A DNA stretch of 64,000 nucleotides, from positions 104,992-168,991 of the forward strand of contig OZ242020.1 of NCBI GenBank assembly GCA_965204875.1. The letters run 5' to 3'. Numbering within the stretch: position 1 is the first letter of the stretch; each line of letters opens with the position of its first letter. The position numbers and the translations under genes are program-made. This document shows positions 12,867 through 57,944 of this stretch, one piece after another. Source of the DNA: Candidatus Aldehydirespirator sp. Lineage in GTDB: Bacteria > Actinomycetota > Acidimicrobiia > Acidimicrobiales > Aldehydirespiratoraceae. The notes beneath the pieces were generated by a model. It did no database searches, was not told the origin of the DNA, and saw nothing but the letters and a program-made list of their open reading frames with translations.

Positions 12867-12975
12867 GGCACGAACCTACTGCGCGCTACCCCGCCCGCAG
12901 AACCCGCGGGTGGCGCAGGCGTCGGACATTCGAGCGCTGTCCAGCAACTTGCGCGCTACTGTGAACACTTGCGCG

Positions 12976-15253: not shown

Positions 15254-16414
15254 CTAGGGCTTCGCAGAACCGACGATCCACATGGCGAAATACTGGGCGC
15301 CGCCGCCGTAGGCGTGGCCCAGGGCCCGGCGGGCGCCGTCGACCTGGTGCTCGCCGGCTGCGCCCATCACCTGCAGCGCGGCCTCCGCGAAGCGGATCAT
15401 GCCCGAGGCGCCGATGGGGTTGCTCGAGAGCACGCCGCCGGAGCAGTTGACGGGCAGGTCGCCGCCGTCGAGCTCGGTCGCGCCCGACTCGACCATGCGC
15501 CAGCCGTCACCGGCAGCGGCGAACCCCAGGCTCTCGAGCCACATCGGCTCGTACCACGAGAACGGCACGTAGATCTCCACCGCATCGATCTCGGCCCGGC
15601 GGTCTGAGATGCCGGCCTGGGCGAACACGTCGTCGGCGCACTGCTCGGACGCGGCCGGCGACACCATGTTGCGGCCGCCGTAGCTGTTGCTCTCGCTGCG
15701 CATGGCGGTGCCGTGGACCCACGCCACCGGACCCTCGTGGGCGTCGCCGGCGGCCTCGTCGGTGAGCACCATGGCGCAGGCGCCGTCCGAGGACGGGCAG
15801 GTCTCGGAGTAGCGGATCGGATCCCACAGCATGGGCGAGTCCACCACCTGCTCGAGCGTGAGGCCGTGCTGGTGGAGGTGTGCGTAGGGGTTGAGCAATG
15901 CGTTGCGGCGGTCCTTGTGGGCGACCATGCAGCCGATCAGCTCGGGCGCCCCCGTCATCATCATGTAGCGGCGGATGATCGGCGAGAAGTAGCCGCCAGC
16001 GCCGGCGTTGACGGAGGTGGCGAACGGCTGGGGCAGCGAGAGCGCCCACATGGCGTTGGACTCCGACTGCTTCTCCCAGCCGACGGTGAGCACGCGGCGG
16101 TGCACCCGGCTCTGCACCATCGACGCCGCCACGCAGGCGGTGGAGCCGCCCACCGAGCCTGCGGTGTGAACGCGCATGATGGGCTTGCCGACGGCGCCAA
16201 GTGCCTCGGCCAGGTAGATCTCGGGCATCATCACGCCCTCGAAGAAGTCCGGCGCCTTGCCGATGATCACCGCGTCGATGTCGTCCCAGGTGCACTGCGC
16301 CATCTCCAGGGCGCGGTAGGCGGCCTCCCGCAGCAGCCCGGGGATCGAGACGTCCCGGCGCGCCGAGGCGTACTTGGTCTGGCCCACGCCGGTGACCGCG
16401 GTGCGCTCAGCCAT
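15254..16414 (-). CDS. Thiolase-like protein (SCP-x / lipid-transfer type)
   Basis: Thiolase-fold length and layout. The C-terminal NxSGG-like segment (NCSGGVLSSNPIGASG) is typical of non-specific lipid-transfer thiolases. Confidence 0.8.
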   Translation of the reverse strand: MAERTAVTGVGQTKYASARRDVSIPGLLREAAYRALEMAQCTWDDIDAVIIGKAPDFFEGVMMPEIYLAEALGAVGKPIMRVHTAGSVGGSTACVAASMVQSRVHRRVLTVGWEKQSESNAMWALSLPQPFATSVNAGAGGYFSPIIRRYMMMTGAPELIGCMVAHKDRRNALLNPYAHLHQHGLTLEQVVDSPMLWDPIRYSETCPSSDGACAMVLTDEAAGDAHEGPVAWVHGTAMRSESNSYGGRNMVSPAASEQCADDVFAQAGISDRRAEIDAVEIYVPFSWYEPMWLESLGFAAAGDGWRMVESGATELDGGDLPVNCSGGVLSSNPIGASGMIRFAEAALQVMGAAGEHQVDGARRALGHAYGGGAQYFAMWIVGSAKP

Positions 16415-16498
16415 GCGCCGCCACCGCTAGTCGCCCCCCGACACGCCTGCGCAGATCAGACACGCGCGCCTGCCCCAACCCTCGTAGCGCCGCCACCG

Positions 16499-17554
16499 CT
16501 AGTCGCCCTCCAGCACGCACACCAGGTTCTGCTGCAGGCAGGGCCCCGAGGTGGCGTGCGCGACGGCGCGGTCGCCCTCCCCGCGGGAGATCCGCGACGC
16601 GGCCTCACCGATGCGGATCAGCCCGGAGGCCATCATCGTGTGCGCGGCGAGCGCCCCGCCGGAGGGGTTGACCGCGGTCGTCTCCTCGTCGATGCCCAGC
16701 GCCCGGGTGAGCAGATGCTCCGAGGTGGTGTAGGGCGCGTGCAGTTCGGCGATATCCAGCTTGTCGGCGTTGACGCCGGCGTGCTGCGCGGCCAGCCGTG
16801 CCGACATCGACGAGGTGAGATCGCGGGCGCCGAGAGTGTGGGCATCGCTGCGGTGGTCGAAACCGCGTATCCATGCCGGTCTCTCACAGAGTTCTGCGGC
16901 CCGGTCGCCGGCGGCCAGCACGATGGCGCAGCCGCCGTCGGCGGAGGCCGGCAGGTCCGAGGGGCGCAGCGGATCGACGGCAAACTCCTCGGCGAGGATC
17001 TCATCCACGGTCTTGGGCTCGGCCCGCACCGCCTGGGGGTTGGAGGCGGCATGGGCGCGGCTGCGCGAGGCGATCTCGGCCAGACGCCGCTGACTGACGT
17101 GCCCGCCCTCGAGCTGCAGGCGCGCCGCGAGGGCCTCCACGGCGTGGCTGTCCGGCCAGAGCGGGCACACGTAGTAGGGATCCATCTGGGTGGCGAGAAC
17201 GTCGCGCAGCGAGCCGGGCGACGTCTTGCCGTAGCCGTACACCAGGGCCGTGTCGATGCCGCCGCACTGGATCTTGACCCATGCCTCATACAGCGCCCAG
17301 GCGCCGTCCTGCTCGACATGGCTCTCGCTGATGGGGGGCACCGGACCCGTGCCGTCGATGGTCATGACGAAGGAGAACGCCTGCCCGGCCAGGAAGTCCG
17401 ACGAGCCCGAGCAGGTGAAACCGATGTCAGCCTGGGTGAGGCCGACGTCGGTCTTGGCCCGCTCCATGAGCGGCACCATGAACTCGACCTCGGACTCGCC
17501 GGGGATCGAGGCCTCCTGGCGCTGCGCGAACGAGACGACCGCCACGTCGATCAT
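16499..17554 (-). CDS. Thiolase-like protein, second subunit
   Basis: Thiolase-fold similarity (NPSGGALAAHTMMASGL). It is shorter than its partner and lacks an obvious N-terminal active-site Cys context. Confidence 0.7.
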   Translation of the reverse strand: MIDVAVVSFAQRQEASIPGESEVEFMVPLMERAKTDVGLTQADIGFTCSGSSDFLAGQAFSFVMTIDGTGPVPPISESHVEQDGAWALYEAWVKIQCGGIDTALVYGYGKTSPGSLRDVLATQMDPYYVCPLWPDSHAVEALAARLQLEGGHVSQRRLAEIASRSRAHAASNPQAVRAEPKTVDEILAEEFAVDPLRPSDLPASADGGCAIVLAAGDRAAELCERPAWIRGFDHRSDAHTLGARDLTSSMSARLAAQHAGVNADKLDIAELHAPYTTSEHLLTRALGIDEETTAVNPSGGALAAHTMMASGLIRIGEAASRISRGEGDRAVAHATSGPCLQQNLVCVLEGD

Positions 17555-17699
17555 CCCGGCCCGGACCTCCTCTCGGGCTCAAGTGTGCCGCTCATATCGA
17601 TCACGTCGGCCCGGCCCTCCAGTTCAAGTGCGCATCTCATATCGATCACGTCGGCCCGGCCCTCCCCTCGGACTCAAGCGTGCAGCTCACGTCGATCAC
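17547..17699 (-). repeat. Three tandem units of 45-50 bp at the DUF35/thiolase junction
   Basis: The core tcgatca(c/t) recurs at 17548, 17597, 17642 and 17692. Each unit starts with GTGATCGA and ends with GGCCGGGCCGxx on the coding strand. Confidence 0.9.
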
Positions 17700-18271
17700 G
17701 GCGCCGCGGCCCGGCCGATGCGCTCGTAGTCGTCGATCCGCTCGTCCGGCTCGCCCGTGGGCTCCCAGCCGCTTATGTTGGCCGCCGACGTCTCAAGCTC
17801 GTCGTCGGGCCTCCACACGGCCCTGACGCGCATGCCGATGCGCACCTGCTCGGGCGCGATGTTGACCACCAGGCCCATGAAGCCCACGGAGGCGCCGTCG
17901 AGCACGATCCAGGCGCTGCAGTAGGGCGGCTTGAGGTCGGGCCGGCGCTCGATGGGGACGCGGGTCACGTTGAACGACTCGACATAGCCGACGTCGGGCA
18001 GCTCCACCACCTCGTGCGTCGCCGTGCCAGCGAGCGGGCTCACGCCGCGGGGCGGGACGAACACCTGGCCGGTCACTGCGCAACGCTCGCCGAGGATCCG
18101 CTTTTGGGCCATAGCCCGCAGGTAGCGCGACAGCGCCCGGCCCGGTGTGTAGGTATAGGTGAGCCGCAGCGGGGTGCAGACGCTGGACACGAGATCCTCG
18201 GCGGCGAGGGACTCCGGCAGCGTGACCTTCGAGGACAGCGCGGCGGGAGGCGCCAGCGGATCCGGCGCCAT
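17696..18271 (-). CDS. DUF35 OB-fold / Zn-ribbon protein
   Basis: Its size and its position next to thiolase genes fit. The C-terminal OB-fold-like segment (MRVRAVWRPDD) is typical of DUF35 partners of SCP-x thiolases. Confidence 0.65.
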   Translation of the reverse strand: MAPDPLAPPAALSSKVTLPESLAAEDLVSSVCTPLRLTYTYTPGRALSRYLRAMAQKRILGERCAVTGQVFVPPRGVSPLAGTATHEVVELPDVGYVESFNVTRVPIERRPDLKPPYCSAWIVLDGASVGFMGLVVNIAPEQVRIGMRVRAVWRPDDELETSAANISGWEPTGEPDERIDDYERIGRAAAP

Positions 18272-27354: not shown

Positions 27355-30201
27355 CTATGCCTCCACGCGCTCGATCATCGAGGTGTCAGGCCCCTTGGAC
27401 ACCACGAAGCGCACGGGCATCTCGTCGCCCAGCTCGCTGATGTGGGTGACGATGCACACCATCCGGCCGGACTCGGCCAGGTCGCCGATGGCGCCGGCCA
27501 CGACGCCCAGGGCGTCGGGGTCGAGCGTGCCGAAGCCCTCGTCGAGGAACAGCGAACCGAGCGCCGGACTCCCCGCGGAGGCCGTCTCGCCCCCGCCGTC
27601 GCCGAGCGCCAGAGCCAGAGCGAGGCTCGCCAGGAACGTCTCGCCGCCCGAGAGGGTCTTGGCCCCGCGCACCTCGTCCGCGTTCTGGTGGTCGCAGATC
27701 CCGAAGTCGGGGTCGTCGGGCACAAAGGAGTACTTGCCGTCCGACAGCTCCAGCAGCCGCTCGTTGGCCCGCTCGATCAAGTCCCCGACCGCGCCCACAA
27801 GGAGCCACCGCTCGAACCCGTCGGCCCGCAGCAACCGGCCGAGCTCCGCGGCTACCTCTTCGTCGGCGCGCAACTTGCCGACGCGTGCTTCTAGCTGCTG
27901 ACGCCGACGTAGCTCCTCGGTAGCAGTCTTGTGAGACATCTCGGCATTTGTGACGGCCACCGCCATCTCGCTCACGAAGCGACTCGAGTCGTCGCCGGGC
28001 TCGAAGTGGGCCGAGCACAGGGTTCGTGCGGACGCGATCAGCTCACGCTCGCGGCCCTGCGCGTCGCGCGCCCGGCGCTCGGCCGCCTCTGACTGCCTGG
28101 CGACCGCGGCCAGCGTCTCGATGGCCCAGGCGGCCAGGTCCTCCCAGTCCTGCAGCAACGACGCCTCAGGTGCCGGTGGCGACAGTGGAGCCAACTCGTC
28201 GCGCCTGGCGCCGTAGTCGCGCCGCGCTCGCTGTTCGTCGGCCTCTAGAGCCTCTAGCGCCTTGACCGCTTGCTGCTTGCGCTCATGGGCAGTCTGTTCT
28301 GCGGCCTCGGCCTTCTGCCGGGCGGCGGCCAGAGCCCCGGCCCGCTCGATGTCCGCCTCAAGCTGGGCTACCTCGGGCTCTCCGGCCAAACGCTCTTCGA
28401 GTTCCTGGCACTGCCGCTGGCAGCTGTCCCGATCTGCCTCGACCTTCGCCTTCTCGACCTCGGCATCCTGCTCCGCCCTAAGGCAGTCCCGCGTCTCGGC
28501 AGCATCTCGCAGGTCGCGCTCGGCCTGCTCCGCGGCCTGCCGCGCAGCGCTGCACCGCTCCGCTTCGGCAGCAAGCTCGTCGGCCTGTGATTCGAGACGG
28601 TCCAGCTCGACCCCGTCCGGCTGGCCCTGAAGCTCGTGCTGCAGCGTCTTCTCTCGCGCCGATAGCTGCTGCAACTGTGACGAGAGGCGTGCCGAGGCGC
28701 TGCGCAACTCAACAAGGGCGTCGGCCGCGCGTTCAACTTCGGACTGGGCGCGGCGGTGGTCAACATCGAGCCTGGCAAGCTCAGCGTCCGGGTCGTGTTC
28801 GGGAAGTTCCACGACCGTCCGGCGGCACACGGGGCACGGTTCACCCTCTCGCAACTGCGTAACCAGTCCCTCGGCCTGCTTGAGCGCACGAGCGAGATCG
28901 AGCCGCTCCACTGCCTTCGACAAGACCCCCTTGGCCGCCGACTGCTCGGCCTGCGCCGACTGCTCGGCCGCAACAGCACGTTCATGCTCAACTGCACGAT
29001 CGGCCACCTGCGGTGCCAGCTCTTCCAGTTCGGCCCGCAACGCGCGCACCCGCTCGATCTGGCCCCGATCCGGACCGCCGGCTGCGGAGTCGAGCGCCTG
29101 CTCAGCCGCACGACGCGCCGCAGCCGCTGCGCCCTCAGCCTCAGCCAGTCGCTCACGCACGACTTCGGCGGCCGCGACCGCTTCCCCGGCGACACGCTCC
29201 GCCTCGCCGGCGCGCTCCTGCAGGGAATCCAGCCGGCCCCGCTCTGCGTCGAGACGCCCGTGATCATCGAGAAGCCTCCGACACTGCCCCACGCTGGGAC
29301 CCTCGTCTGCCTCACGGCGCGCCCCGGTCGCGGCATCGCGCGCCTCCTCGTATTTCGCCGCGGCGCCGTCGCTTGCCTCACGAGCCGCCTGAAGCTCGGC
29401 GTCGAGCCGTTGCACGGCGCCTGGCACCGCCTTGCTACGGGCGAGCACCTTCCCAGCGGCGGCGAGGCGCGACATCTCGCCCTCGGCCGCCTTGCGATCA
29501 GCAACAGCCACCTCGAGCTGCTCCATCCGGGCTTCGAGCTCTGCCTGGGCGGCGCGTGCGGCCTCGGCAAGCCCGGCAAGCTCGGTGACCCGTTCAGCGG
29601 TCGGCGCCTCACGCTCGAGTTCGGGCCGCAGCGCCGCGATCTGATCCCGGGCCGTGGCGGCCCGCCTGCGAGCCTCGGCACCCACGCGGTCGTAGATGCC
29701 CAGGCCGATGAGGTGTTTCAGCAGTTCCTGGCGGTCGGCGGCCTTGTCGTGCAGGAACTCCGCGAAACGGCCCTGCGGCAGCACCACGGTCTTGGTGAAG
29801 CGGTCGAAGTCGAGGCCCAGGAGCCCCTCAACGGCGGGGCCCATCTCGCGGGCGCTGCCGGCCAGGGTCTGCTCGCCTCGCTCCAGGCGGGCCTCCCTGG
29901 TGGAGGCGCCGGCGGCGGTCCGGCGAACCACGCGCGTCGCCGTGTACGCCTCGCCGCCCGCCTCGAAGTCGAGGGAGACCCGCGCCTCCGCCGCCAGCTG
30001 GTTGATGACCGGTGCCACGGCCCGGGCGTCGTCGTAGCGGGCCACGGTTCCGAACAGGGCGAAGGTGATGCCGTCGATGATCGTGGTCTTGCCGGATCCG
30101 GTAGGCCCCACGAGGGCTGCCTGCTCCACATCGCTGAAGTCCACCGCGGTGTCGGAGCGGAAGCTGCCGAAGCCCCTCAGGCTCAACTTCAAGGGCCTCA
30201 T
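27355..30201 (-). CDS. sbcC: SbcC / Rad50-like SMC ATPase
   Basis: Walker A GPTGSGKTT, long coiled coils, a central zinc hook CPVC, signature LSGGETFLASLALALAL, Walker B LFLDEGFGTLD. Confidence 0.9.
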   Translation of the reverse strand: MRPLKLSLRGFGSFRSDTAVDFSDVEQAALVGPTGSGKTTIIDGITFALFGTVARYDDARAVAPVINQLAAEARVSLDFEAGGEAYTATRVVRRTAAGASTREARLERGEQTLAGSAREMGPAVEGLLGLDFDRFTKTVVLPQGRFAEFLHDKAADRQELLKHLIGLGIYDRVGAEARRRAATARDQIAALRPELEREAPTAERVTELAGLAEAARAAQAELEARMEQLEVAVADRKAAEGEMSRLAAAGKVLARSKAVPGAVQRLDAELQAAREASDGAAAKYEEARDAATGARREADEGPSVGQCRRLLDDHGRLDAERGRLDSLQERAGEAERVAGEAVAAAEVVRERLAEAEGAAAAARRAAEQALDSAAGGPDRGQIERVRALRAELEELAPQVADRAVEHERAVAAEQSAQAEQSAAKGVLSKAVERLDLARALKQAEGLVTQLREGEPCPVCRRTVVELPEHDPDAELARLDVDHRRAQSEVERAADALVELRSASARLSSQLQQLSAREKTLQHELQGQPDGVELDRLESQADELAAEAERCSAARQAAEQAERDLRDAAETRDCLRAEQDAEVEKAKVEADRDSCQRQCQELEERLAGEPEVAQLEADIERAGALAAARQKAEAAEQTAHERKQQAVKALEALEADEQRARRDYGARRDELAPLSPPAPEASLLQDWEDLAAWAIETLAAVARQSEAAERRARDAQGRERELIASARTLCSAHFEPGDDSSRFVSEMAVAVTNAEMSHKTATEELRRRQQLEARVGKLRADEEVAAELGRLLRADGFERWLLVGAVGDLIERANERLLELSDGKYSFVPDDPDFGICDHQNADEVRGAKTLSGGETFLASLALALALGDGGGETASAGSPALGSLFLDEGFGTLDPDALGVVAGAIGDLAESGRMVCIVTHISELGDEMPVRFVVSKGPDTSMIERVEA

Positions 30202-30349
30202 CGCGGCGCCTCCGCGCCCCCGGCACGCCTGCGAGCGAGTGCCGCAGGAACGCTCCGAACCGGGTCAGGCCTCATCGCGGCGCCTCCGCGCCCCCGGCAC
30301 GCCTGCGAGCGAGTGCCGCAGGAACGCTCCGAACCGGGTCGGGCCTCAT
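30196..30349 (-). repeat. Two tandem 74-bp units between sbcD and sbcC
   Basis: cat (ATG) recurs at 30199, 30273 and 30347. The two units are nearly identical, differing only at about 30267/30341 (a/g). Confidence 0.9.
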
Positions 30350-31527
30350 CGCAGCGTCTCTGCCCGATCGGCCTCGTGCTGTTCCTCCAGCAGCGCGACG
30401 AACAGCGACCTCACCCGCCCGTCCGCGATGTTGCGCTCGGCCAGGTACTCGTCGAAGAGCTCGACGCTGCCGCGCCCGGATCGCGCGGACCGGCGGCGCC
30501 GAGGTTGCGAGTCGTCCTCGACGCGCACGTCCACCACGCTCTCACCGCGTGCGCCCAGCGCCTCGCGCACCTCTCCGGCAAGGCCGGCCCGCCGCGGCTC
30601 CCGCACGATCACCCTCAGCCACGGGTCTCCCTCAAGCTCCGCGGCGGCCCCGGCGACCTCCGCCAGCGTGCCCGACAGCGTGCGCAGCGACCGGCCGCCC
30701 CCCAGCCGCAGCGGCGTCACCGCCGGGGGCAGGCCGGCCTCAATCTCGACCAGGTTCACCTGCTTGTGGTGCTGCTCCTCGCCGAAGTCGAGCTGCAGGG
30801 GCGACCCGCAATAGTGGATCTGGCCAGGCCCGGCGATCCTCTGGGGCCGGTGCACGTGGCCGAGTGCCACATATCCCGCCGTGGCCGGAAAGACCTGGGC
30901 GCTCAGCGCGTACTCGTCGACGAAGTGCACGGCCCGCTCGCCGCCCCCGAGCCTGCCGCCGTGCACGAAGGCGTGCGCCATCAACACGTTGACCGTGCCG
31001 GGCTCGAAGCCCCCGGCCAGCACCTCGATCAGCAGCCGCATGCGCTCGGCATAGGCCTGCGCGTGCTCGTAGGCCTCGGAGTCCATCAGGTCCCTGGCGC
31101 GGACGATGCCGCGCCGTGACACGAACGGCAGCATGGCCACGCAGGCGTCCTCGCCCCGGCGCGTCCGCAAGCGCAGCACGCCGCCGTCGCCGGGCCTGCT
31201 CGGCTCGGCAACCACATGCACGCGCCCGGCGGCCTCGAACACGGGCGCCACGGCTGCGAGCTTGCGACCGCTGTCGTGGTTGCCGGCGATCACCGCCACC
31301 TGTGCGCCTGTGCCGGCCAGGTCCAGCAGCGCCCGGTACACGATCCTCTCCGCCTCGGCCGACGGCGCGGAGGTCTCGAACACGTCGCCCGCCACGAGCA
31401 CCAGGTCTACCGAGTGCTCACCGGCCAGGCGGGCGATCTCGGCCAGCACCGCCTGATGCTCGCCGGCGCGGCTTCGCCCCCGGATCGTCTTGCCGACGTG
31501 CCAGTCGCTGGTGTGCAGCAGTTTCAT
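30346..31527 (-). CDS. sbcD: SbcD / Mre11-like nuclease
   Basis: MKLLHTSDWHVGK...LVAGDVFE...IAGNHD phosphoesterase motifs. I prefer the start at 31527 (MKLLHTSDWH) over the listed 31608. Confidence 0.9.
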   Translation of the reverse strand: MKLLHTSDWHVGKTIRGRSRAGEHQAVLAEIARLAGEHSVDLVLVAGDVFETSAPSAEAERIVYRALLDLAGTGAQVAVIAGNHDSGRKLAAVAPVFEAAGRVHVVAEPSRPGDGGVLRLRTRRGEDACVAMLPFVSRRGIVRARDLMDSEAYEHAQAYAERMRLLIEVLAGGFEPGTVNVLMAHAFVHGGRLGGGERAVHFVDEYALSAQVFPATAGYVALGHVHRPQRIAGPGQIHYCGSPLQLDFGEEQHHKQVNLVEIEAGLPPAVTPLRLGGGRSLRTLSGTLAEVAGAAAELEGDPWLRVIVREPRRAGLAGEVREALGARGESVVDVRVEDDSQPRRRRSARSGRGSVELFDEYLAERNIADGRVRSLFVALLEEQHEADRAETLR

Positions 31528-31582
31528 CGCCGCACCCGCCGCAGCCGGGCAACCACGCCGGCGCGCCGCGCCTGTTGCAGCC

Positions 31583-33346
31583 TCACGCCAGGCCCTCGAA
31601 AGGGTCATCGGGCTGTGCGGGGCCGCCGGCGCCGGGAGGCAGGGAGGGATCGACCTCGGCTGAGCGGGTGGCCCAGGCCGGGAACGGGAACTCCACCAGC
31701 AGCGGCACCGGCAGGCGGGGCTGGGACACGTACATCGAGCCGGGCTTGAGGATCGTGGCCCGCTGGCGCTGCACGCCGGGCAGGAACCCGTACTGCTCGC
31801 GGCCCGCCTCGGCGCTGTCGAGGCGCCCGACCACGCGCACGGCGCTGTTGGCCACCACCCGCCGCTCCACCTCGCTGGCCGTCTGCTGGGCGCCGATCAG
31901 GATGATCCCGAGGCTGCGTCCCCGCTCGGCCACGTCCAGCAGGATCTCCTTGATGGGGCTGCTGCCGTCGCGGGGCGCGTACTTGTTGAGCTCGTCGAGC
32001 ACCACGAACTGCAGCGGCTTGGAGGTTCCGCTGCTCTCCTTGGCCTCGAAGGCCTGGCGCAGCACGACGCCGACCACGAAACGCTTGGCCCGGTCGTGGA
32101 GCTGATGTATGTCCACCACGGTGAGCTGGTTGGAGTCCAGGTCGATCGCGTGGGCCGGGGCGTCCGCCACGTCGGCGCGTATCAGATGGTGGAGGTGGCG
32201 CACCGAGGCGTGCAACCGGCGAACGAAGGCGTTGATCGTGCCGGGGCCGATGGCCCGCCCGCTCCAGCGCGGGTCCGGCGCCTGGTCGGGATCGTCGGGG
32301 ATCAGCTGCCGCTCGATGGCGTTCACAAGCTCGCCGAAGCGCCGGATCGTGCTCTTGCCGATGCGCACCGACCCGTCCGCCGCCGCGGTCCTATCGGCGC
32401 ACCGGGCCAGCTGCGCCGCCACCGACTGCACGACGATGGTGTACTGCTGGCGCTCGTCCTGGGCGTCCGCGAACAGGAAGGGCAGCAGCTGCTGCGAGCA
32501 GAAGTCGGCGATGCTCCAGAAGTAGGGGCGCACCCCGTAGTGCCGGGCGCCGGTGGCGGGGGTGGCGTTGGGGTCGTTGGGGCGGGGCGGCGCCAGGACG
32601 CCGACCGAGGTGAAGGGAGCGGGCTGGAGCCCCAGCGCCGCGTAGCGCTGTCGCTGGTCGGGTTCGAGGCGGGCGTTGGGGTGGTCCAGGAAGAGCAGGT
32701 CCTCGCCCTTGACGTTGAAGATCAGGCCCTTGGTGTGCATGGCCTCGCCCGCGAGCACACCCGAGTTGAACAGCGCGTACAGCAGGAACGTGGCGTAGCT
32801 GGTCTTGGTGGCGACGCCGGAGATGCCGCTGATGTTGATGTGGGCGCCCTTGGTGCCGTCGATGAAGTCGAGGTCGAGGTAGATGGGCTCGTCGTAGCGG
32901 CTCAGGCCCGCAGGAAGGCGGCGATCCGGCTCGACCTCATCGAAGTCCAGGGCCGCGTCGCGCTCCTCGCCGGCGGCGAGGCGCACCTCCGAACCGGGCA
33001 GCGGCGGCACGAACGTCTCCGGCACCACCCTGGTGAGCTGCACCTGCGCGGCCTCGCTCACCTCGGCCGGCAGCACGCCGTCGGCGATCAGGAAGACGTC
33101 GCTGTCGAAGCGGGCGCCCTCGTGGCGGGCCCGCACCTGGCTGACGACGCCGTAGAGGCAGATCCGGTCATCGTTGGGCAGCACCCGGTCTATCGCCACC
33201 ACGTCATCGAGCTGCAGGTGCGAGCCGGGTGCCACGGCCACCCAGAACTCGAGCGGCGTGGCGTCGTCGGTGCCGAGCACCCGGCCCACCACCTCGCTCA
33301 CGGCAACCTCTCCATCAATGTGCTCTTCATCAAGATGAAGGTACAA
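31583..33346 (-). CDS. herA: HerA-like (DUF87, FtsK/HerA superfamily) ATPase
   Basis: An N-terminal barrel-like region, a deviant Walker A GISGVATKTS, Walker B FVVLDELNKY, and a C-terminal LGIILIGAQQTASEV segment typical of HerA. Confidence 0.75.
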   Translation of the reverse strand: MYLHLDEEHIDGEVAVSEVVGRVLGTDDATPLEFWVAVAPGSHLQLDDVVAIDRVLPNDDRICLYGVVSQVRARHEGARFDSDVFLIADGVLPAEVSEAAQVQLTRVVPETFVPPLPGSEVRLAAGEERDAALDFDEVEPDRRLPAGLSRYDEPIYLDLDFIDGTKGAHINISGISGVATKTSYATFLLYALFNSGVLAGEAMHTKGLIFNVKGEDLLFLDHPNARLEPDQRQRYAALGLQPAPFTSVGVLAPPRPNDPNATPATGARHYGVRPYFWSIADFCSQQLLPFLFADAQDERQQYTIVVQSVAAQLARCADRTAAADGSVRIGKSTIRRFGELVNAIERQLIPDDPDQAPDPRWSGRAIGPGTINAFVRRLHASVRHLHHLIRADVADAPAHAIDLDSNQLTVVDIHQLHDRAKRFVVGVVLRQAFEAKESSGTSKPLQFVVLDELNKYAPRDGSSPIKEILLDVAERGRSLGIILIGAQQTASEVERRVVANSAVRVVGRLDSAEAGREQYGFLPGVQRQRATILKPGSMYVSQPRLPVPLLVEFPFPAWATRSAEVDPSLPPGAGGPAQPDDPFEGLA

Positions 33347-34858: not shown

Positions 34859-34913
34859 TCCACCGAATGTGATCCACCGAATGTAATCCACCGAATGTAA
34901 TCCACCGAATGTA
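34859..34913. repeat. Four tandem copies of the 14-bp unit tccaccgaatgtNa between murF and the amidase gene
   Basis: Read directly from the sequence: gtccaccgaatgtga tccaccgaatgtaa tccaccgaatgtaa tccaccgaatgta. The array ends about 25 nt upstream of the amidase start. Confidence 0.9.
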
Positions 34914-38030: not shown

Positions 38031-40478
38031 GTGATCTCTGAGGCTCTGGCCGGCAAGCGCATCGCCATCACGGGCGCGACCGGCTTTCTGGGCACGGCGC
38101 TCACCGAGCGGCTGCTGCGCTGCGTGCCCGGCTGCGAGCTGGTGCTGATCGTGCGTCCAGGCCGCCGGGGCGCGGCCGAGCGGGTGCGCCGCGACGTGCT
38201 GCGCAACGACGCCTTCGGCCGCTTGCGCGCCGAGCTGTCGCAGCAGGGCGCTCAGGAGTCCTATGAGGAGATGACGGCACGGCGGGTCACGGCCGTCGCG
38301 GGCGATGTCAGCGTCGACGGGCTGGGGCTCGACGACGCCGGCCTGGCCGCGCTGGCCGCCTGCGACACGGTGATACACGCTGCGGCCACCGTCAACTTCG
38401 ACTCGGCCCTCGACGACGCGGTCGAGGTCAACCTGCTCGGCCCGACACGGGTGGCGGCGGCGCTCGCCGAGGCCGGCGCCAGAGCACACCTGATCTCGGT
38501 ATCGACCTGCTACGTGGCCGGCAGCCGCCGGGGCGCGGCCCCCGAGCAGCTCGTCGACGACTCGCCGTTCTTCACCGACGTGGACTGGCGCGACGAGGCG
38601 GCCGGCGCACGCCAGGCCCGCGCCGACGCCGAGCAGGCCAGCCGGAGCCCACAGCGCCTCGCCGCGCTGTCCGCTGAGGCCCGGCGAGAGCTCGGCGCGG
38701 CCGGCATCCCGGCGATTGCCCACAAGGTGGAGAGCCTGAGGCGGCGCTGGGTGGAGGAGCAGATGAGCAGCGCCGGCCGCGCCAGGGCCGCCAGCCTGGG
38801 CTTCCCCGACGCCTACGCCTTCACCAAGGCCCTCGGTGAGCGCGCCTTGGCCGAGACCCGCGGCGACACGCCGGTGAGCATCGTGCGGCCCTCCATCATC
38901 GAGTCCGCCCTGGCCGAGCCCTACCCGGGATGGATCCGCGGCTTCCGGATGGCCGAGCCGGTGATCGCCGCCTACGCCCGGGGCCTGCTCAAGGAGTTCC
39001 CCGGCGTGCCCGAGGGGATCATCGACGTGATCCCGGTGGACCTCGTCGTGGCCACCATCGCAGCGGTGGCGGCACGCGGCCCCGGCGGTCACCACTCCGG
39101 CAGTCACACCCCCCAGGGTCACGACTCCGGCAGTCACAGCCCCGGCGGCCACGACTCCGGCGGTCACGGCCCGGACGTCGTCCAGATCGCCAGCGGGGCC
39201 ATCAACCCGCTCAAGTACGGCCAACTCTTCGACCTCGTGAGCGGCTGGTTCACCGACCACCCCGTCTACGACGAGCACAACCAGCCGATCCGGGTGCCTC
39301 GCTGGTCGTTCCCCGGACGGGGGCGCGTGGCCCGGCAGCTCCAGCGGGCCCAGCGCTGCCTGGAGGCGGCCGACCGGGTGCTCTCGGTGCTGCCCCTGCG
39401 GGGCCGCCACGCGATGATGAGCGCCGGCCTCGACGAGCGCCGCCAGCAACTGGAGCGTGCCAGCGACTACGTGGAGCTGTACGGCGCCTACGCCGAGTGC
39501 GAGGCGATCTACGGGCTCGACCGCCTGATGGAGCTGTGGGAGTCCCTCGACGACATCGACCGGTCGACGTTCTGCTTCGACCCGCGCCGCGTGGACTGGG
39601 ACCGCTACGTGCACGAGATCCACCTGCCGTCGATGGTGGAGCAGGCCCGCCTGAAGATGGCGCCGGGCACGCGGCCCCCCGGGGGCGAGACCCGCTCGGG
39701 CAGGCTCCGGCGGCAGGTGCTCGCCCCCGAGCGCCACCTGGCCGTGTTCGACCTCGAGAACACGCTGATCGCGTCGAACGTGGTGGCCAGCTACGCCTGG
39801 CTCGCCACCCGCGAGCTGGACGACGCAGCCAGGGTGCGTTTCGCGGCCCGCACGCTGGCCGAGGCGCCCAGGCTGCTGGCGCTGGACCGCCGCGACCGCA
39901 GCGACTTCCTGCGCTACTTCTACCGCCGCTTCGCCGGCGCCGGAGTCGACCGCATGGACGCCGAGTGCGCCGAGATGCTCAGCGACCTGATCCTGGCCAG
40001 GTCCTTTCCCCAGGGCATCCGCCGGGTGCGCCGGCATCGAGCCGCCGGGCACACGACCCTGCTCATCACCGGCGCGCTGGACTTCGTGGTGGCGCCCCTG
40101 CGACCGCTCTTCGACCACATCGTGGCCGCGGAGATGGGAACCCGCGACGGCGCCTACGACGGCAGACTGCGCAGCGTGCCCCCCACCGGCGAGGCCCGCT
40201 ACCAGACTCTGGTCGATTTCGCCGCCGAGCGCGGCCTCGACCTCCGGGAGTCCGTCGCATACGCCGACAGCACGTCGGATCTGCCGATGCTCGAGGCCGT
40301 GGGCTTCCCGGTGGCGGTCAACCCCGAGACCAAGCTCGCAGCCCTGGCACGGCGGCGCGGCTGGCTCATCGAGCACTGGTCGACCAGCGCCGGAGCGCCG
40401 GCCAAGCTGCTGCCGATGGCGCCGCGGGACCGCCATCGCCACCGGCACGGGCGCGCCACGCTCACCAGGCTCGCCTGA
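38031..40478 (+). CDS. Fatty acyl-CoA/thioester reductase (NAD_binding_4-type) fused to a HAD-IB hydrolase domain
   Basis: N-terminal ITGATGFLGTALTERLL Rossmann motif and a FAR-like layout. The C-terminal part carries AVFDLENTLI (HAD motif I with Glu in place of the second Asp) and ADSTSDLPMLE (motif IV). Confidence 0.65.
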   Translation: MISEALAGKRIAITGATGFLGTALTERLLRCVPGCELVLIVRPGRRGAAERVRRDVLRNDAFGRLRAELSQQGAQESYEEMTARRVTAVAGDVSVDGLGLDDAGLAALAACDTVIHAAATVNFDSALDDAVEVNLLGPTRVAAALAEAGARAHLISVSTCYVAGSRRGAAPEQLVDDSPFFTDVDWRDEAAGARQARADAEQASRSPQRLAALSAEARRELGAAGIPAIAHKVESLRRRWVEEQMSSAGRARAASLGFPDAYAFTKALGERALAETRGDTPVSIVRPSIIESALAEPYPGWIRGFRMAEPVIAAYARGLLKEFPGVPEGIIDVIPVDLVVATIAAVAARGPGGHHSGSHTPQGHDSGSHSPGGHDSGGHGPDVVQIASGAINPLKYGQLFDLVSGWFTDHPVYDEHNQPIRVPRWSFPGRGRVARQLQRAQRCLEAADRVLSVLPLRGRHAMMSAGLDERRQQLERASDYVELYGAYAECEAIYGLDRLMELWESLDDIDRSTFCFDPRRVDWDRYVHEIHLPSMVEQARLKMAPGTRPPGGETRSGRLRRQVLAPERHLAVFDLENTLIASNVVASYAWLATRELDDAARVRFAARTLAEAPRLLALDRRDRSDFLRYFYRRFAGAGVDRMDAECAEMLSDLILARSFPQGIRRVRRHRAAGHTTLLITGALDFVVAPLRPLFDHIVAAEMGTRDGAYDGRLRSVPPTGEARYQTLVDFAAERGLDLRESVAYADSTSDLPMLEAVGFPVAVNPETKLAALARRRGWLIEHWSTSAGAPAKLLPMAPRDRHRHRHGRATLTRLA
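39087..39176 (+). repeat. In-frame 3 x 30-bp His/Gly/Ser-rich repeat inside the reductase gene
   Basis: GHHSGSHTPQ GHDSGSHSPG GHDSGGHGPD. Confidence 0.85.
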
Positions 40479-40533
40479 TGCACCGCAACCTCAACCATCG
40501 CGGGCGCGCCACGCTCGCCAGGCCCGCCTGATG
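40448..40533 (+). repeat. 53-bp tandem duplication of the reductase/LarA-like gene junction
   Basis: cgggcgcgccacgctc(a/g)ccaggc(t/c)cgcctgatg occurs twice, at 40448..40480 and 40501..40533. Confidence 0.9.
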
Positions 40534-42150
40534 GCGCCGGACCGCCGCCCGCACCGGGCGCCGCGACCCGGTCTCGTCGTCGAGGTGGACCGCTCCACGC
40601 CGCCGGTGCTGTTCCACCACGGCGAGGGGTTCCGCCTGGAGCGGCTGCCGCCGGGGCGCAGCCGCGTGATCTACCCCGCCGAGCCGCAGGCGGGCCTTTC
40701 CGACCCCGACGGGGCCATACGCGAGGCCCTGCTGAACCCGCTCGACGACGACCCGCTGCCTTCGCTGCTGCATCCGGGAATGCGCCTCACCATCGCCTTC
40801 GACGACGTGTCGCTGCCGCTGCCGCCCATGCGACGACCCGACATCCGCCAGCGCGTCGTCGAGCAGGTGCTCGACATGGCGGCCGCGGCCGGGGTCGACG
40901 ACGTGCACCTGATCGCGGCGCTGGCCCTGCACCGTCGCATGACCGAGGCCGAGCTGCGCCACGCCCTCGGCGACCGGGTCTATGAGGCGTTCGCCCCGCA
41001 CGGAGCCCTCTACAACCACGACGCCGAGGATCCCGACGGCATGGTGGAGCTGGGCCGCACCCCCCACGACGAGCTGGTCACCATGAACCGCCGGGCCGCG
41101 GAGAGCGACCTGCTGGTGTACGTGAACATCAACCTCGTCGCCATGGACGGCGGATGGAAGTCCACGGCCACGGGCCTGGCCGGATACAGCGCGCTGCGCC
41201 ACCATCACAACGTGGCGACCATGCAGCGGTCTCGCTCGTTCATGGACCGCCACCGCTCGGAGCTGCACCGCTCGAACTGGCGCCAGGGCGAGGTGATCAA
41301 GGCCCACGGCCCGCGCGTTTTCCAAATCGAGACCACCGTCAACAACAACACCTTCGGCCGCTCCGGCCCCCTGGCCGTGCTGCAGAAGCGGGAGTGGGAG
41401 TGGGGCGCGCGGGACCGGGCGTCGTTCATGGCGATGCAGGCCGGCCTGCGGGCCATGCCGGGCGCGGCCCGCCGCAGCCTCTTCGGCTCCTGGCTGGCCC
41501 CGTACGAGATGACCTCGGTGCAGGCCGGCGACGTCGAGGCCGTGCACGAGCGCACCACCTCACACGTGCTGTCACAGCATCTGGTGGCCGTCGAGGGCCA
41601 GACCGACGTGCTCACGATGGGGCTGCCCTACATCTGCCCCTACAACGTGAACTCGACCATGAACCCGATCCTGGTCATGTGCCTGGGCCTGGGGTACTTC
41701 TTCAACCTCTACCGGGGCCGGCCGCTGGTGCGCTCCGGCGGCGTGGTGATCATGAGCCATCCCACGCCCTGGGAGTTCCACCCGGTGCATCATCCGAGCT
41801 ACATCGACTTCTTCGAGCAGGTGCTGCCCGTCACCACCGACCCCGCCGAGATCGAGTCGAAGTTCGAGGAGCAGTTCGCCCGCGACGAGTGGTACATCCA
41901 CCTGTACCGCACCAGCTACGCCTATCACGGCGTCCACCCGTTCTACATGTGGTACTGGGGGGCGCACGCCCTGCAGTGGCTGGGCCGGGTGATCGTGGTG
42001 GGCGGCGACCCTGCGGCGGTGCGCAGGATGGGCTTCCAGCCCGCCTCCACCCTGCCGGACGCGCTGGAGATGGCCGGCGATGTGGTGGGACCGTCGCCCA
42101 CGATCACACACCTGCACAACCCGCCGATCCTCATGGCCGACGTAACGTGA
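40531..42150 (+). CDS. LarA-like (DUF2088, lactate-racemase N-terminal domain) protein
   Basis: The N-terminal region (LTIAFDDVSLPLP...VHLIAALALHRRMT...NINLVAMDGGWKS) resembles the DUF2088/LarA fold. This is judged by eye only. Confidence 0.5.
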   Translation: MAPDRRPHRAPRPGLVVEVDRSTPPVLFHHGEGFRLERLPPGRSRVIYPAEPQAGLSDPDGAIREALLNPLDDDPLPSLLHPGMRLTIAFDDVSLPLPPMRRPDIRQRVVEQVLDMAAAAGVDDVHLIAALALHRRMTEAELRHALGDRVYEAFAPHGALYNHDAEDPDGMVELGRTPHDELVTMNRRAAESDLLVYVNINLVAMDGGWKSTATGLAGYSALRHHHNVATMQRSRSFMDRHRSELHRSNWRQGEVIKAHGPRVFQIETTVNNNTFGRSGPLAVLQKREWEWGARDRASFMAMQAGLRAMPGAARRSLFGSWLAPYEMTSVQAGDVEAVHERTTSHVLSQHLVAVEGQTDVLTMGLPYICPYNVNSTMNPILVMCLGLGYFFNLYRGRPLVRSGGVVIMSHPTPWEFHPVHHPSYIDFFEQVLPVTTDPAEIESKFEEQFARDEWYIHLYRTSYAYHGVHPFYMWYWGAHALQWLGRVIVVGGDPAAVRRMGFQPASTLPDALEMAGDVVGPSPTITHLHNPPILMADVT

Positions 42151-42232
42151 CGCCGACTCGTCAGAACTCCGGCACCGAACCGGCACCGAGGTCGGAGCAT
42201 CGCTCCGGGACTCGCCCCGCCGACGTGAGCTG

Positions 42233-43186
42233 ATGGGCATCGCGCACGATCTGGGGCTGACCGGCCTGGGGCGGCGCCTGCCGTCGCCGGTTCGGGCATG
42301 GCGCGCCCGCTCGTTCCCGCTGCGGGCGCCGGCGCTGCCGCGCGGCGTCGAGTCCACCGAGGCGCCGCAGCGCACCGGCTCGGGCTTCGACACATCGTGG
42401 GCGCGCCGCTGGCCGGCTCGCATGTGCCGCGCCGCCATCGTGGAGGGGCCGATGCGGGCCATGGTCCAGGTGTTCGCCTCGCCTCGCCGCAACGGCATCG
42501 ACCGCCTCAGCGGCCTCGAGGGGCCGGTGATCTTCGTGTCCAACCACCACAGCCATATCGACACCCCCCTGCTGCTCACCTCGATCCCCGAGCCGTGGCG
42601 CCACCGCATGATGGTGGGCGCGGCGGCGGACTACTTCTTCGGCACGCGCACCGCAGGGGCGGCGGCCGCCCTCGTCATCGGCGCCATCCCCATCGAGCGC
42701 GCCCGCGTCGGGCGCCGCTCCGCCGACCTCGCGGCCGGCCTCATCGACGATGGCTGGAGCCTGCTGATCTACCCGGAGGGCGGCAGGAGCCCCGACGGCT
42801 GGGGGCAGCCGTTTCGGGGCGGCGCCGCCTACCTGGCGCTGCGCTGCGGCGTGCCGGTGGTGCCGATCTGCGTGCGCGGCACCGGCAACATCTTGAGCAA
42901 GGGCCGCCGGATGCCCAAGCCGGCGGAGGCGTCGGTGACCTTCGGCGTTCCCATGCGGCCCGAACCGGGTGAGCGGGCGCCCCGCTTCGCGGCCCGCATC
43001 GAGGCGGCAGTGGCGGCCCTGGCCGACGAGGCCGGCACCGACTGGTACTCGGCGCGCATGCGCGCCCACGCCGGCGCCGGCGGCACGCTGACCGGCCCCG
43101 CCGCCGGCGCCTGGCGCCGCCAGTGGGCCCTCGGCCAGCGCCCCCGCCGGCAGGCCCGCCCGCAACACCGCTGGCCCGCCCCCTAG
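42233..43186 (+). CDS. PlsC-type (lysophospholipid/glycerol-3-phosphate) acyltransferase
   Basis: HX4D motif NHHSHIDTPLL and the YPEGGRS motif. Confidence 0.8.
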   Translation: MGIAHDLGLTGLGRRLPSPVRAWRARSFPLRAPALPRGVESTEAPQRTGSGFDTSWARRWPARMCRAAIVEGPMRAMVQVFASPRRNGIDRLSGLEGPVIFVSNHHSHIDTPLLLTSIPEPWRHRMMVGAAADYFFGTRTAGAAAALVIGAIPIERARVGRRSADLAAGLIDDGWSLLIYPEGGRSPDGWGQPFRGGAAYLALRCGVPVVPICVRGTGNILSKGRRMPKPAEASVTFGVPMRPEPGERAPRFAARIEAAVAALADEAGTDWYSARMRAHAGAGGTLTGPAAGAWRRQWALGQRPRRQARPQHRWPAP

Positions 43187-57808: not shown

Positions 57809-57944
57809 GGGGTTCCAAGCGTACCGGCGACACCGGCGCCTGCCGCGGCCTCCGGCGGTCGCAGCGGACTCCTTCAGTTCGCAGCAATGACGGTGTACGT
57901 TGTTGGGTTATCGCCGCGGCCTCCGGCGGTCGCAGCGGACTCCG

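What the first reader, a model, noticed from the sequence alone, without database searches (positions are those of the whole stretch)
40448..40533. 53-bp duplication of the reductase/LarA-like junction creates a 17-codon TGATG-coupled mini-ORF
The reductase ends ...GRATLTRLA* with its TGA overlapping an ATG (CTGATG). That ATG opens MHRNLNHRGRATLARPA* (40478..40531). The mini-ORF ends in the same GCCTGATGG context, where its TGA overlaps the ATG of the LarA-like gene (40531). The mini-ORF recapitulates the last 9 residues of the upstream protein. This is the third example in the window of a junction duplication that conserves the coupling.
Basis: seen in the sequence. Interest (0 to 1): 0.55.

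Follow-up and report, generated by a model that had tools for sequence, protein, structure and literature searches.

The report
Duplicated gene junction with relay mini-ORF
Between two overlapping operon genes of an uncultured Acidimicrobiales bacterium lies a 53-base tandem copy of the first gene's tail, forming a 17-codon filler reading frame that keeps the stop/start overlap on both sides; it looks like the MIRU repeats of mycobacteria but arose by local duplication, and similar copies have arisen repeatedly in related genomes.

Summary
Window 40429-40480 and 40482-40533 are a tandem direct repeat (43/52 identical, period 53; simulated maximum 35/52). The reductase/HAD gene ends in TGATG. 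That ATG opens MHRNLNHRGRATLARPA*, whose TGA overlaps the ATG of the LarA-like gene.

The mini-ORF copies the whole reductase tail from an internal Met codon (86% identity, gaps only in whole codons). A 10-nt microhomology, GATGGCGCCG, marks both ends of the duplicated segment.

It is not a dispersed element.

The closest relatives (92% and 89% LarA identity) have a single TGATG junction. Two other clades carry their own units of 47 nt and 44 nt at the same junction. All periods are 2 mod 3, so the relay of overlapping stops and starts stays intact. The next junction, LarA to acyltransferase, also carries relay mini-ORFs of varying length across the clade.

Best explanation: a microhomology-mediated tandem duplication that survives because it preserves termination-reinitiation coupling. 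The architecture matches mycobacterial MIRUs, but this is not a member of that family. No expression data or reads were available. Interest is moderate.

The parts
38031..40478 (+). Upstream gene: fatty acyl-CoA reductase (NAD_binding_4/Sterile) fused to a HAD-type hydrolase, 815 aa. Its stop TGA is at 40476-40478.
   Evidence: ORF list. Pfam NAD_binding_4 E=5.5e-52 and HAD E=8.6e-24.
40416..40477 (+). Repeat unit 1 (62 nt): the reductase C-terminal tail from its in-frame Met codon to the TG before the first junction ATG (MAPRDRHRHRHGRATLTRLA).
   Evidence: Direct repeat D1. Codon-gapped alignment to the mini-ORF gives 44/51 identical. The Met aligns with L/M in orthologous tails.
40415..40424 (+). 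Left copy of the 10-nt exact microhomology GATGGCGCCG, at the tail Met codon.
   Evidence: Read from the sequence. Relatives carry CCGATGGCGCC at the same place.
40476..40480 (+). First TGATG: the reductase stop overlaps the mini-ORF start by one base.
40478..40531 (+). Repeat unit 2, the 17-codon mini-ORF MHRNLNHRGRATLARPA*. The unit is 53 nt (40478-40530).
40467..40469 (+). Weak Shine-Dalgarno-like AGG, 8 nt before the mini-ORF ATG. Its copy at 40520-40522 lies 8 nt before the LarA ATG.
   Evidence: Read from the sequence. Relatives have GAGG or GGAGG at the same spacing in both copies. Function is inferred.
40529..40533 (+). Second TGATG: the mini-ORF stop overlaps the LarA-like start.
   Evidence: It aligns with the single TGATG of L161, L165 and L002 and of L002 and L004.
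40530..40539 (+). Right copy of the 10-nt microhomology GATGGCGCCG, at the LarA start.
40531..42150 (+). Downstream gene: LarA-like (Lar_N / DUF2088) protein, 539 aa.
   Evidence: Pfam Lar_N E=1.5e-36. The N-terminus aligns with orthologous starts.
42147..42233 (+). Second relay mini-ORF in the same operon, 28 codons: VTPTRQNSGTEPAPRSEHRSGTRPADVS*. Its GTG overlaps the LarA stop (GTGA) and its TGA overlaps the acyltransferase ATG (TGATG). Its C-terminus echoes the LarA C-terminus MADVT*.
42233..43186 (+). Third operon gene: PlsC-type acyltransferase, 317 aa.
   Evidence: Pfam Acyltransferase E=3.2e-18.

Best explanation
This is a lineage-specific tandem duplication of the reductase/LarA gene junction.

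Origin. An ancestor had a single TGATG junction, as the closest relatives still do. Unequal exchange or replication slippage between two copies of GATGGCGCC duplicated the intervening tail of roughly 53-62 nt. One copy lay at an in-frame Met codon in the reductase tail. The other lay at the LarA start.

Why the relay survives. The left breakpoint sits on an in-frame ATG, and the segment ends in the reductase stop. The new copy is therefore a self-contained mini-gene. It inherits the weak SD, an ATG overlapping the reductase TGA, 17 sense codons, and a TGA overlapping the LarA ATG.

Proposed function. Ribosomes that finish the reductase can restart on the mini-ORF, and then restart on LarA, so the coupled expression of the two proteins is not interrupted.

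Proposed selection. Duplications whose period is not 2 mod 3 would send restarting ribosomes across the LarA start in the wrong frame and would be removed. This would explain why only frame-compatible units are seen. The peptide itself has no function.

Shown: the repeat, its anatomy, its local origin, the empty and filled orthologous sites, and the mod-3 rule.

Inferred: the microhomology mechanism, that the mini-ORF is translated, and that selection for coupling is what filters the periods.
For: - The repeat is far beyond chance.
- The mini-ORF aligns to the whole reductase tail with whole-codon gaps only, 86% identity. Its 5' end (ATG CAC CGC AAC C) matches the tail of relative L161 (ATG GCG CCC CGC AAC C) better than the window's own, now diverged, tail. 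So the copy began at the Met codon.
- A 10-nt exact microhomology sits at 40415-24 and 40530-39.
- Units from four window loci and from L001/L003 share no consensus. blastn of the units finds no other copies in the window or in 168 related loci.
- Empty sites with one TGATG occur in L161-164 (92% aa), L165 (89%), L166, L168, L002 and L004. Filled sites with different units occur in L001/L003/L167 (47 nt) and L169 (44 nt). The L169 peptide MASHDRAARLSETG* begins like its LarA (MASDRR) and ends like its reductase (KLSRTA*).
- An NJ tree places the 53-, 47- and 44-nt units in three separate clades. L002 and L004, which lack the unit, sit inside the 47-nt clade, implying precise loss.
- All periods are 2 mod 3: 53, 47 and 44 here, and 74 and 50/95 elsewhere in the window.
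- Of 12 sequence-verified duplications of overlapping junctions, 11 keep a strict relay (binomial against 1/3: 5e-5; events listed).
- There is no terminator, promoter, Rfam family or unusual RNA structure between the genes.
- In some Acidimicrobiales the reductase and LarA are fused in one ORF, which fits a need for co-expression.
- Short coupled ORFs that deliver ribosomes to a downstream gene, and MIRUs as an example, are described in PMC12548453.
Against: - There are no expression, ribosome-profiling or read data, so translation of the mini-ORF and reinitiation are inferred.
- The SD in the window is weak (AGG only).
- Frame compatibility of this particular unit follows automatically from the breakpoint lying on an in-frame ATG. 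On its own it says nothing about selection. At this junction there are only three independent units (p = 0.04).
- The 11/12 count has ascertainment caveats: some events were found with a chain-based search, and phylogenetic independence was judged by eye.
- There are counter-examples. In L168 a 69-nt duplication of the LarA/acyltransferase junction breaks the strict relay. A 72-nt junction duplication at window 16415-16508 has no start codon in its first copy.
- In this GC content about two thirds of TGA stops are preceded by A, G or T. 'Overlapping starts' that count GTG and TTG are therefore common by chance (my own estimate from base composition). Generic chain scans were also noisy.
- The mismatches cluster in the 5' part of the unit (7/20 against 2/32, p = 0.02). 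This needs either constraint on the SD-to-start part or gene conversion.
Confidence: 0.75

Rival explanations
1. It is a MIRU-type dispersed, possibly mobile, repeat that inserts at start codons and carries its own coupled ORF. It would not be a local duplication.
For: The architecture is the one described for MIRUs: a 40-100 bp unit between operon genes, with an ORF whose ends overlap the neighbours. The 53-bp unit size equals the commonest MIRU size in M. tuberculosis H37Rv (PMC3558156 table 2). Filled and empty sites exist among relatives.
Against: The unit is a copy of the adjacent reductase tail along its whole length. Units at different loci share no consensus. No other copies exist in the window or in about 1.2 Mb of related loci. 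Units in other clades resemble their own flanks, not each other. The direct repeat at the filled site in L001 is 17 nt of junction sequence, not a 4-nt target duplication of the kind reported for MIRUs. The organism is an Acidimicrobiales, not a mycobacterium.
Confidence: 0.05
2. It is a selectively neutral tandem duplication. LarA is translated from its own ribosome-binding site, the mini-ORF is irrelevant, and frame compatibility is a by-product of breakpoints lying on ATG-containing microhomologies, or coincidence.
For: For this unit the frame follows from the in-frame ATG breakpoint. Each unit copy carries its own SD-like motif, so de novo initiation at LarA is possible. Counter-examples exist: L168 and the 72-nt unit at 16.4 kb. 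Many more distant orthologs manage with ordinary non-overlapping spacers.
Against: 11 of 12 verified junction duplications keep the relay. Units at this junction differ in length by whole codons (44, 47, 53). At the LarA/acyltransferase junction the relay ORF has seven different lengths across the clade, and all are frame-compatible. That pattern is expected for translated sequence, not for free spacer.
Confidence: 0.15
3. It is an assembly or sequencing artefact: a spurious duplication of the junction.
For: No reads could be inspected. The exact LarA protein is not on record elsewhere, so there is no independent assembly of the same strain.
Against: The two copies differ at 9 of 52 positions and by whole-codon indels. 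Assembly duplications are normally identical. Independent assemblies of related organisms show analogous units at the same junction.
Confidence: 0.03
4. The mini-ORF encodes a functional micropeptide or a regulatory leader peptide.
For: It has a start, an SD-like motif and an open frame.
Against: It is absent from the closest relatives. Peptides at the same site in other clades are unrelated in sequence and length: MAERTRGLELPGRSA, MAAGARGMRLLGGVA, MASHDRAARLSETG. There is no RNA structure or Rfam match that would suggest attenuation.
Confidence: 0.02

Closest known systems
Mycobacterial interspersed repetitive units (MIRUs; Supply et al. 1997 Mol Microbiol 26:991, as summarised in PMC12548453 and PMC3184786)
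   Same: Short units of 40-100 bp, often tandem, lying between co-directional operon genes. Each contains a small ORF whose start and stop overlap the stop and start of the neighbours, so coupling is kept. Copy number or presence varies between relatives. The common unit sizes, 53 and 77 bp (PMC3558156), are 2 mod 3, like the 44, 47, 53 and 74 nt seen here.
   Different: MIRUs are one sequence family found at about 40-50 loci per genome. They are thought to insert at start codons with tetranucleotide target repeats.
Ordinary bacterial minisatellites / VNTRs made by slipped-strand mispairing or unequal exchange between short direct repeats (established knowledge)
   Same: Head-to-tail copies, microhomology at the ends, gain and precise loss among close relatives, and further in-frame indels.
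   Different: The repeated segment is a complete translation stop/restart module. The surviving periods obey a reading-frame rule even though the unit lies outside the annotated genes.
Short 'delivery' upstream ORFs and the synthetic bicistronic design, in which a leader ORF's stop overlaps the start of the gene of interest (PMC12548453, its refs 75 and 78)
   Same: A short translated ORF has its stop overlapping the downstream start, and carries the downstream SD inside its own coding sequence. Its only role is to hand ribosomes on.
   Different: Here the ORF is itself fed by termination of an upstream gene, making a two-step relay. It arose by duplication rather than by design. Its activity is untested.

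Membership tests
MIRU (mycobacterial interspersed repetitive unit) | Unit of about 40-100 bp located between co-directional genes of one operon | tested here: met
   A 53-nt unit lies between the reductase/HAD and LarA-like genes. There is no promoter or terminator between them.
MIRU (mycobacterial interspersed repetitive unit) | Unit contains an ORF whose start and stop overlap the stop and start of the flanking genes | tested here: met
   TGATG at both ends (40476-80 and 40529-33), with 17 open codons between them.
MIRU (mycobacterial interspersed repetitive unit) | One sequence family dispersed at tens of loci, sharing a consensus | tested here: not met
   Units from four window loci and two relatives give no common consensus. 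blastn finds only the local tandem copies in the window plus 168 loci. The test is limited to 64 kb of this genome.
MIRU (mycobacterial interspersed repetitive unit) | Sequence similarity to the MIRU consensus | not testable with these tools
MIRU (mycobacterial interspersed repetitive unit) | Host is a Mycobacterium | tested here: not met
   All close relatives of the locus are Acidimicrobiales/Acidimicrobiia MAGs.
MIRU (mycobacterial interspersed repetitive unit) | Short (tetranucleotide) target-site repeats at filled versus empty sites, suggesting insertion | tested here: not met
   Comparing L001 (filled) with L002 (empty), the flanking repeat is 17 nt of junction sequence (GAGGTCGGCCTGATGGC). 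The interior resembles the neighbouring gene ends. In the window the whole unit is a copy of the adjacent tail.
Tandem duplication / minisatellite by microhomology | Head-to-tail copies derived from the adjacent sequence | tested here: met
   83% ungapped and 86% codon-gapped identity to the immediately preceding sequence.
Tandem duplication / minisatellite by microhomology | Short direct repeat at both ends of the duplicated segment in the pre-duplication state | tested here: met
   GATGGCGCCG at 40415-24 and 40530-39. The empty-site relative L161 has CCGATGGCGCC and CTGATGGCCTC 56 nt apart. L166 has them 53 nt apart.
Tandem duplication / minisatellite by microhomology | Copy number varies among close relatives, including precise loss | tested here: met
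   Filled and empty sites occur within clades of 93-95% nt identity: L001 versus L002, L003 versus L004, L169 versus L168. Strain-level variation could not be tested.
Translationally coupled relay (termination-reinitiation) ORF | The mini-ORF is translated, and downstream expression depends on it | not testable with these tools
   This needs ribosome profiling or reporter assays. Only the sequence prerequisites (overlaps, SD-like motif, open frame) are shown.

The most novel reading that the evidence does not exclude
In these high-GC Acidimicrobiales, termination-reinitiation may be so dominant that any sequence added between overlapping genes must itself be a translated relay ORF. Intercistronic spacers would then evolve under a reading-frame constraint without any constraint on the peptide. 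Gain, loss and resizing of relay units would act as an evolvable dial for the ratio of neighbouring gene products. Locally born units like these could also be the evolutionary starting point of dispersed MIRU-type families.
Probability: 0.2. Interest if true: 0.65.

Novelty: new variant of a known kind. Interest (0 to 1): 0.42.

Why it matters
It would give a clean natural experiment on translational coupling. The same gene junction has been duplicated independently at least three times, with 44-, 47- and 53-nt units, and each time the stop/start relay was kept. A neighbouring junction carries relay ORFs of seven different lengths.

If the frame rule holds genome-wide, three things follow. Some 'intergenic' DNA in operons would be under selection for being translated, not for what it encodes. 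The MIRU architecture would be shown to arise from plain local duplication outside mycobacteria. Annotators would have a reason to treat such spacers as functional relay ORFs rather than as noise.

If the rule does not hold, this is an ordinary minisatellite.

Tried and rejected
1. Old LarA start. I considered that the Met at 40416 (LLPMAPR...) is the remnant of an older LarA start, because of D2 and a 53-nt-offset match in L004. I rejected this. The Met aligns with L/M in a widely conserved tail motif, LP[LIM][AG]PR. The L004 match is at a level expected by chance: about 0.35 hits per 64 kb in shuffles.

2. Generic scans for mini-ORFs bounded by two overlapping junctions, and a crude GC3-based gene caller. 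These were too noisy to give a genome-wide rate. High-GC frames are open by chance, and [AGT]TGA is common.

3. Other tandem repeats in the related loci whose period is not a multiple of 3 (L116, L013, L016, L079 and others). Those inspected in sequence (L116, L013, L016, L079) are intergenic repeats that do not involve an overlapping stop/start. They neither support nor contradict the frame rule.

4. RNA explanations. There is no Rfam hit, and folding is no better than shuffles (z = -0.45). There is no promoter or terminator.

5. Search for conspecific genomes. No exact LarA protein is on record. The metagenome scan gave at most 81% identity. The best relative is 92%. Strain-level copy-number variation therefore could not be examined.

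6. Literature searches for a description of junction duplications with coupled ORFs outside mycobacteria found nothing. The original MIRU paper is not held.
Full report
**1. What is there**

The window is high-GC DNA (about 63-73% across the window, about 72% around the locus). The region holds a co-directional gene row.

- 38031..40478 encodes an 815-aa fusion of a fatty-acyl-CoA-reductase-type domain (NAD_binding_4, Sterile) and a HAD hydrolase.
- 40531..42150 encodes a 539-aa LarA-like protein (Lar_N).
- 42233..43186 encodes a PlsC-type acyltransferase.
- An aconitase gene follows after a longer gap.

The reductase ends ...GRATLTRLA* in the context GCCTGATG. The ATG embedded in that TGATG (40478) opens MHRNLNHRGRATLARPA*. 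Its TGA lies in a second GCCTGATG, whose ATG (40531) starts the LarA-like gene.

The repeat finder reports 40429-40480 and 40482-40533 as a direct repeat of 52 nt, 83% identical, spaced 53 nt apart. The 43/52 matches compare with a maximum of 35/52 in 40 simulated sequences of the same size and dinucleotide make-up.

**2. What was duplicated**

With gaps restricted to whole codons, the mini-ORF aligns to the entire last 20 codons of the reductase, beginning at an internal Met codon at 40416 (44/51 identical).

The first codons of the mini-ORF are ATG CAC CGC AAC C. They fit the tail of the closest relative, L161 (ATG GCG CCC CGC AAC C), better than the window's own tail, which has since changed to ...CGG GAC CGC. 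So the copy was made from the Met codon onward, before that change.

The 10-mer GATGGCGCCG occurs exactly at the tail Met (40415-24) and at the LarA start (40530-39). Relatives with a single junction have the same pair of short repeats, 53 nt apart in L166 and 56 nt apart in L161.

This is the signature expected of a tandem duplication by unequal exchange or slippage between short direct repeats. That mechanism is an inference from established knowledge.

The left repeat lies on an in-frame ATG, and the segment ends with the reductase stop. The copy is therefore automatically an ORF that starts in the first TGATG and ends in the second. Later changes were whole-codon indels (unit 1 is now 62 nt, unit 2 is 53 nt) and nine substitutions. 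The substitutions cluster in the 5' part: 7/20 against 2/32 in the SD-to-start part (Fisher p = 0.02).

**3. Local copy, not a dispersed element**

I aligned units from the four junction repeats in the window and from two relatives. They share only the start codon and an SD-like GGAGG. blastn of every unit against the window and 168 related loci finds only the local tandem copies. There is no Rfam family, no unusual RNA fold, and no promoter or terminator in the interval.

**4. Orthologous junctions**

The locus belongs to uncultured Acidimicrobiales. The exact LarA protein is not on record. The best relatives are at 92% (L161-L164) and 89% (L165) amino-acid identity.

| State | Loci | Unit and peptide |
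|---|---|---|
| Empty (single TGATG) | L161-L164, L165, L166, L168, L002, L004 | none |
| Filled | L001, L003, L167 | 47 nt; MAERTRGLELPGRSA*, MAAGARGMRLLGGVA*, MAVRARTPELPRRSA* |
| Filled | L169 | 44 nt; MASHDRAARLSETG* |
| Filled | window | 53 nt; MHRNLNHRGRATLARPA* |

The L169 peptide begins like its LarA (MASDRR...) and ends like its reductase (...KLSRTA*). That is what a duplication spanning the junction should give.

An NJ tree of the LarA genes puts the 53-, 47- and 44-nt units in three different clades. It places the empty L002 and L004 inside the 47-nt clade.

The 47-nt units of L001 and L167 share interior sequence that their own reductase tails lack, so they are orthologous. Hence there was at least one precise loss. 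The window and L169 units resemble their own tails, so they are most simply independent gains.

All three unit lengths are 2 mod 3, and all keep TGATG on both sides.

**5. The same thing elsewhere**

In the window (minus strand):

- The SbcD/SbcC junction carries two 74-nt units. Each is a 25-codon ORF linked by ATGA overlaps.
- The ChsH2-like/thiolase-like junction carries units of 50, 45 and 50 nt. They read as a 17-codon and a 31-codon ORF linked by GTGA/ATGA overlaps.
- In each case the mini-ORF starts like the downstream protein and ends like the upstream one.

At the next junction of the same operon:

- The LarA stop (GTGA) is overlapped by a 28-codon ORF that ends ...PADVS*. This echoes the LarA ending ...MADVT*. 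Its TGA overlaps the acyltransferase ATG.
- Relatives have relay ORFs there of 3, 5+2, 6, 17, 20, 25 and 29 codons. In L161 the peptide ends ...EIMADVT*.
- More distant orthologs mostly have a direct GTGA/ATGA overlap.
- L138 has a 53-nt unit there, and L039 has two 62-nt units.

**6. Is the relay kept more often than chance?**

For a duplication that contains an overlapping stop/start, only one period class in three lets the ORF opened at the first junction end in the stop of the second.

I counted events in which a repeat of the junction is visible in sequence. Eleven of twelve keep a strict relay (binomial p about 5e-5).

- The exception is L168. There a 69-nt duplication makes the mini-ORF run 7 nt past the acyltransferase ATG.
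- A 72-nt duplication of a non-overlapping junction at 16415-16508 lacks a start in its first copy, so the rule does not apply to it.

This statistic is rough. Independence was judged by eye, some events were found with a relay-based search, and for the window unit itself the frame follows from the breakpoint. Generic genome scans could not sharpen it, because in this GC content open frames and [AGT]TGA contexts are common by chance.

**7. Mechanism proposed**

Shown:
- a locally derived tandem duplication of a stop/restart module
- its recurrence at this junction
- precise loss
- whole-codon length changes
- a frame rule

Inferred:
- Ribosomes terminating at the reductase UGA reinitiate at the overlapping AUG. 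They translate 17 codons, terminate at the second UGA and reinitiate on LarA.
- Units that break this relay are selected against, because restarting ribosomes would cross the LarA start out of frame.
- The peptide is not conserved and is very unlikely to matter.

In several Acidimicrobiales the reductase and LarA are fused into one ORF (L035 and L048; L109, L117 and L119). This fits a requirement for joint expression.

**8. Comparison with what is known**

The architecture is that of mycobacterial MIRUs. These are 40-100-bp units between operon genes, with small ORFs whose ends overlap the neighbours. They are proposed to minimise the effect of insertion on expression (PMC12548453; PMC3184786). 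The standard M. tuberculosis units are 53 and 77 bp, also 2 mod 3 (PMC3558156).

Membership fails on the features that define the family. There is no shared consensus or dispersal. The flanking repeat is 17 nt of junction sequence rather than a tetranucleotide. The host is not a mycobacterium. Similarity to the MIRU consensus could not be tested.

The element also matches an ordinary microhomology-mediated minisatellite. Functionally it matches short 'delivery' ORFs and the synthetic bicistronic design.

I found no description of locally born junction duplications with preserved coupling outside mycobacteria. The search covers open-access text only.

**9. Verdict**

It is best described as a new variant of a known kind: MIRU-like architecture produced by recurrent local duplication in Acidimicrobiia.

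Interest is moderate. The single locus is an ordinary mutation. The recurrence and the frame rule make a testable case that intercistronic spacers in these operons are constrained to remain translated relays.

Noticed in passing
window 30202-30349 (minus strand): Two near-identical 74-nt units lie between an SbcD-like gene (30346..31608) and an SbcC-like gene (27355..30201). Each encodes MRPDPVRSVPAALARRRAGGAEAPR*, with ATGA overlaps at every boundary. The unit contains an internal inverted repeat, CCTGCG...CGCAGG.
   Followed up: partly
window 17555-17699 (minus strand): Three units of 50, 45 and 50 nt lie between a ChsH2-type OB-fold gene (17696..18271) and a thiolase-like gene (16499..17554). 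They read as a 17-codon ORF and a 31-codon ORF, linked by GTGA/ATGA overlaps. Each begins VID(V/M), like the downstream MIDV.
   Followed up: partly
window 16415-16508 (minus strand): A 72-nt duplication of the non-overlapping junction (GGCGACTAGCGGTGGCGGCGC then ATG) lies between the thiolase-like gene and the next thiolase gene (15254..16414). The first copy has TAC where the second has ATG, so no relay ORF exists here.
   Followed up: partly
window 42147-42233: A 28-codon ORF bridges the LarA stop (GTGA) and the acyltransferase start (TGATG). Its end, PADVS*, echoes LarA's MADVT*. Relatives have bridging ORFs of 3 to 29 codons at this junction. In L168 the relay is broken by a 69-nt duplication, and in L165 by a long spacer.
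   Followed up: yes
window 57838-57952: A direct repeat of about 44 nt with period 71 (GCCGCGGCCTCCGGCGGTCGCAGCGGACTCC...) lies downstream of a phosphoribosyltransferase-domain ORF on the minus strand. It is not obviously a gene junction and remains unexplained.
   Followed up: partly
L035, L048, L109, L117, L119 (reductase/LarA region): In these Acidimicrobiales loci the reductase/HAD frame runs straight into the LarA-like gene, apparently as a single fused ORF. This suggests the two proteins work together.
   Followed up: no
L165:2860-3001: The reductase tail of the 89% relative contains an in-frame tandem repeat of about 45 nt (TCATCAGCATCCGGTTCTG(T/C)CGGATCAGCGGCCCGCTCAGCC, two copies). 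The tail region is repeat-prone in other ways too.
   Followed up: no
L138:4611-4666 and L039:5590-5716: Junction duplications at the LarA/next-gene boundary in more distant Acidimicrobiales. L138 has one 53-nt unit (VSTDAVDTDAHDEMADVT*). L039 has two 62-nt units (VSGPRNPC(R/G)RPERPWSERHVT*). Both are linked by GTGA overlaps.
   Followed up: partly
window 2496-2587, 20050-20230, 22970-23080, 61045-61115: Long runs of GTC/GTA/GTG triplets on the plus strand (period 9-36). Read on the minus strand they would be Asp/Tyr/His-rich low-complexity coding repeats, occurring in several genes.
   Followed up: no
window 34859-34913 and 12947-12987: Two AT-richer intergenic direct-repeat arrays: TCCACCGAATGTAA in about 4 copies (97% identical), and ACTTGCGCGCTACTGTGAAC in 2 exact copies. 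They look like operator or iteron-type binding-site arrays.
   Followed up: no
window 37276-37437 and 39075-39168: In-frame coding tandem repeats: 66 nt in about 2.4 copies just upstream of the reductase gene region, and 30 nt in about 2.7 copies inside the reductase gene, between its reductase and HAD domains.
   Followed up: no
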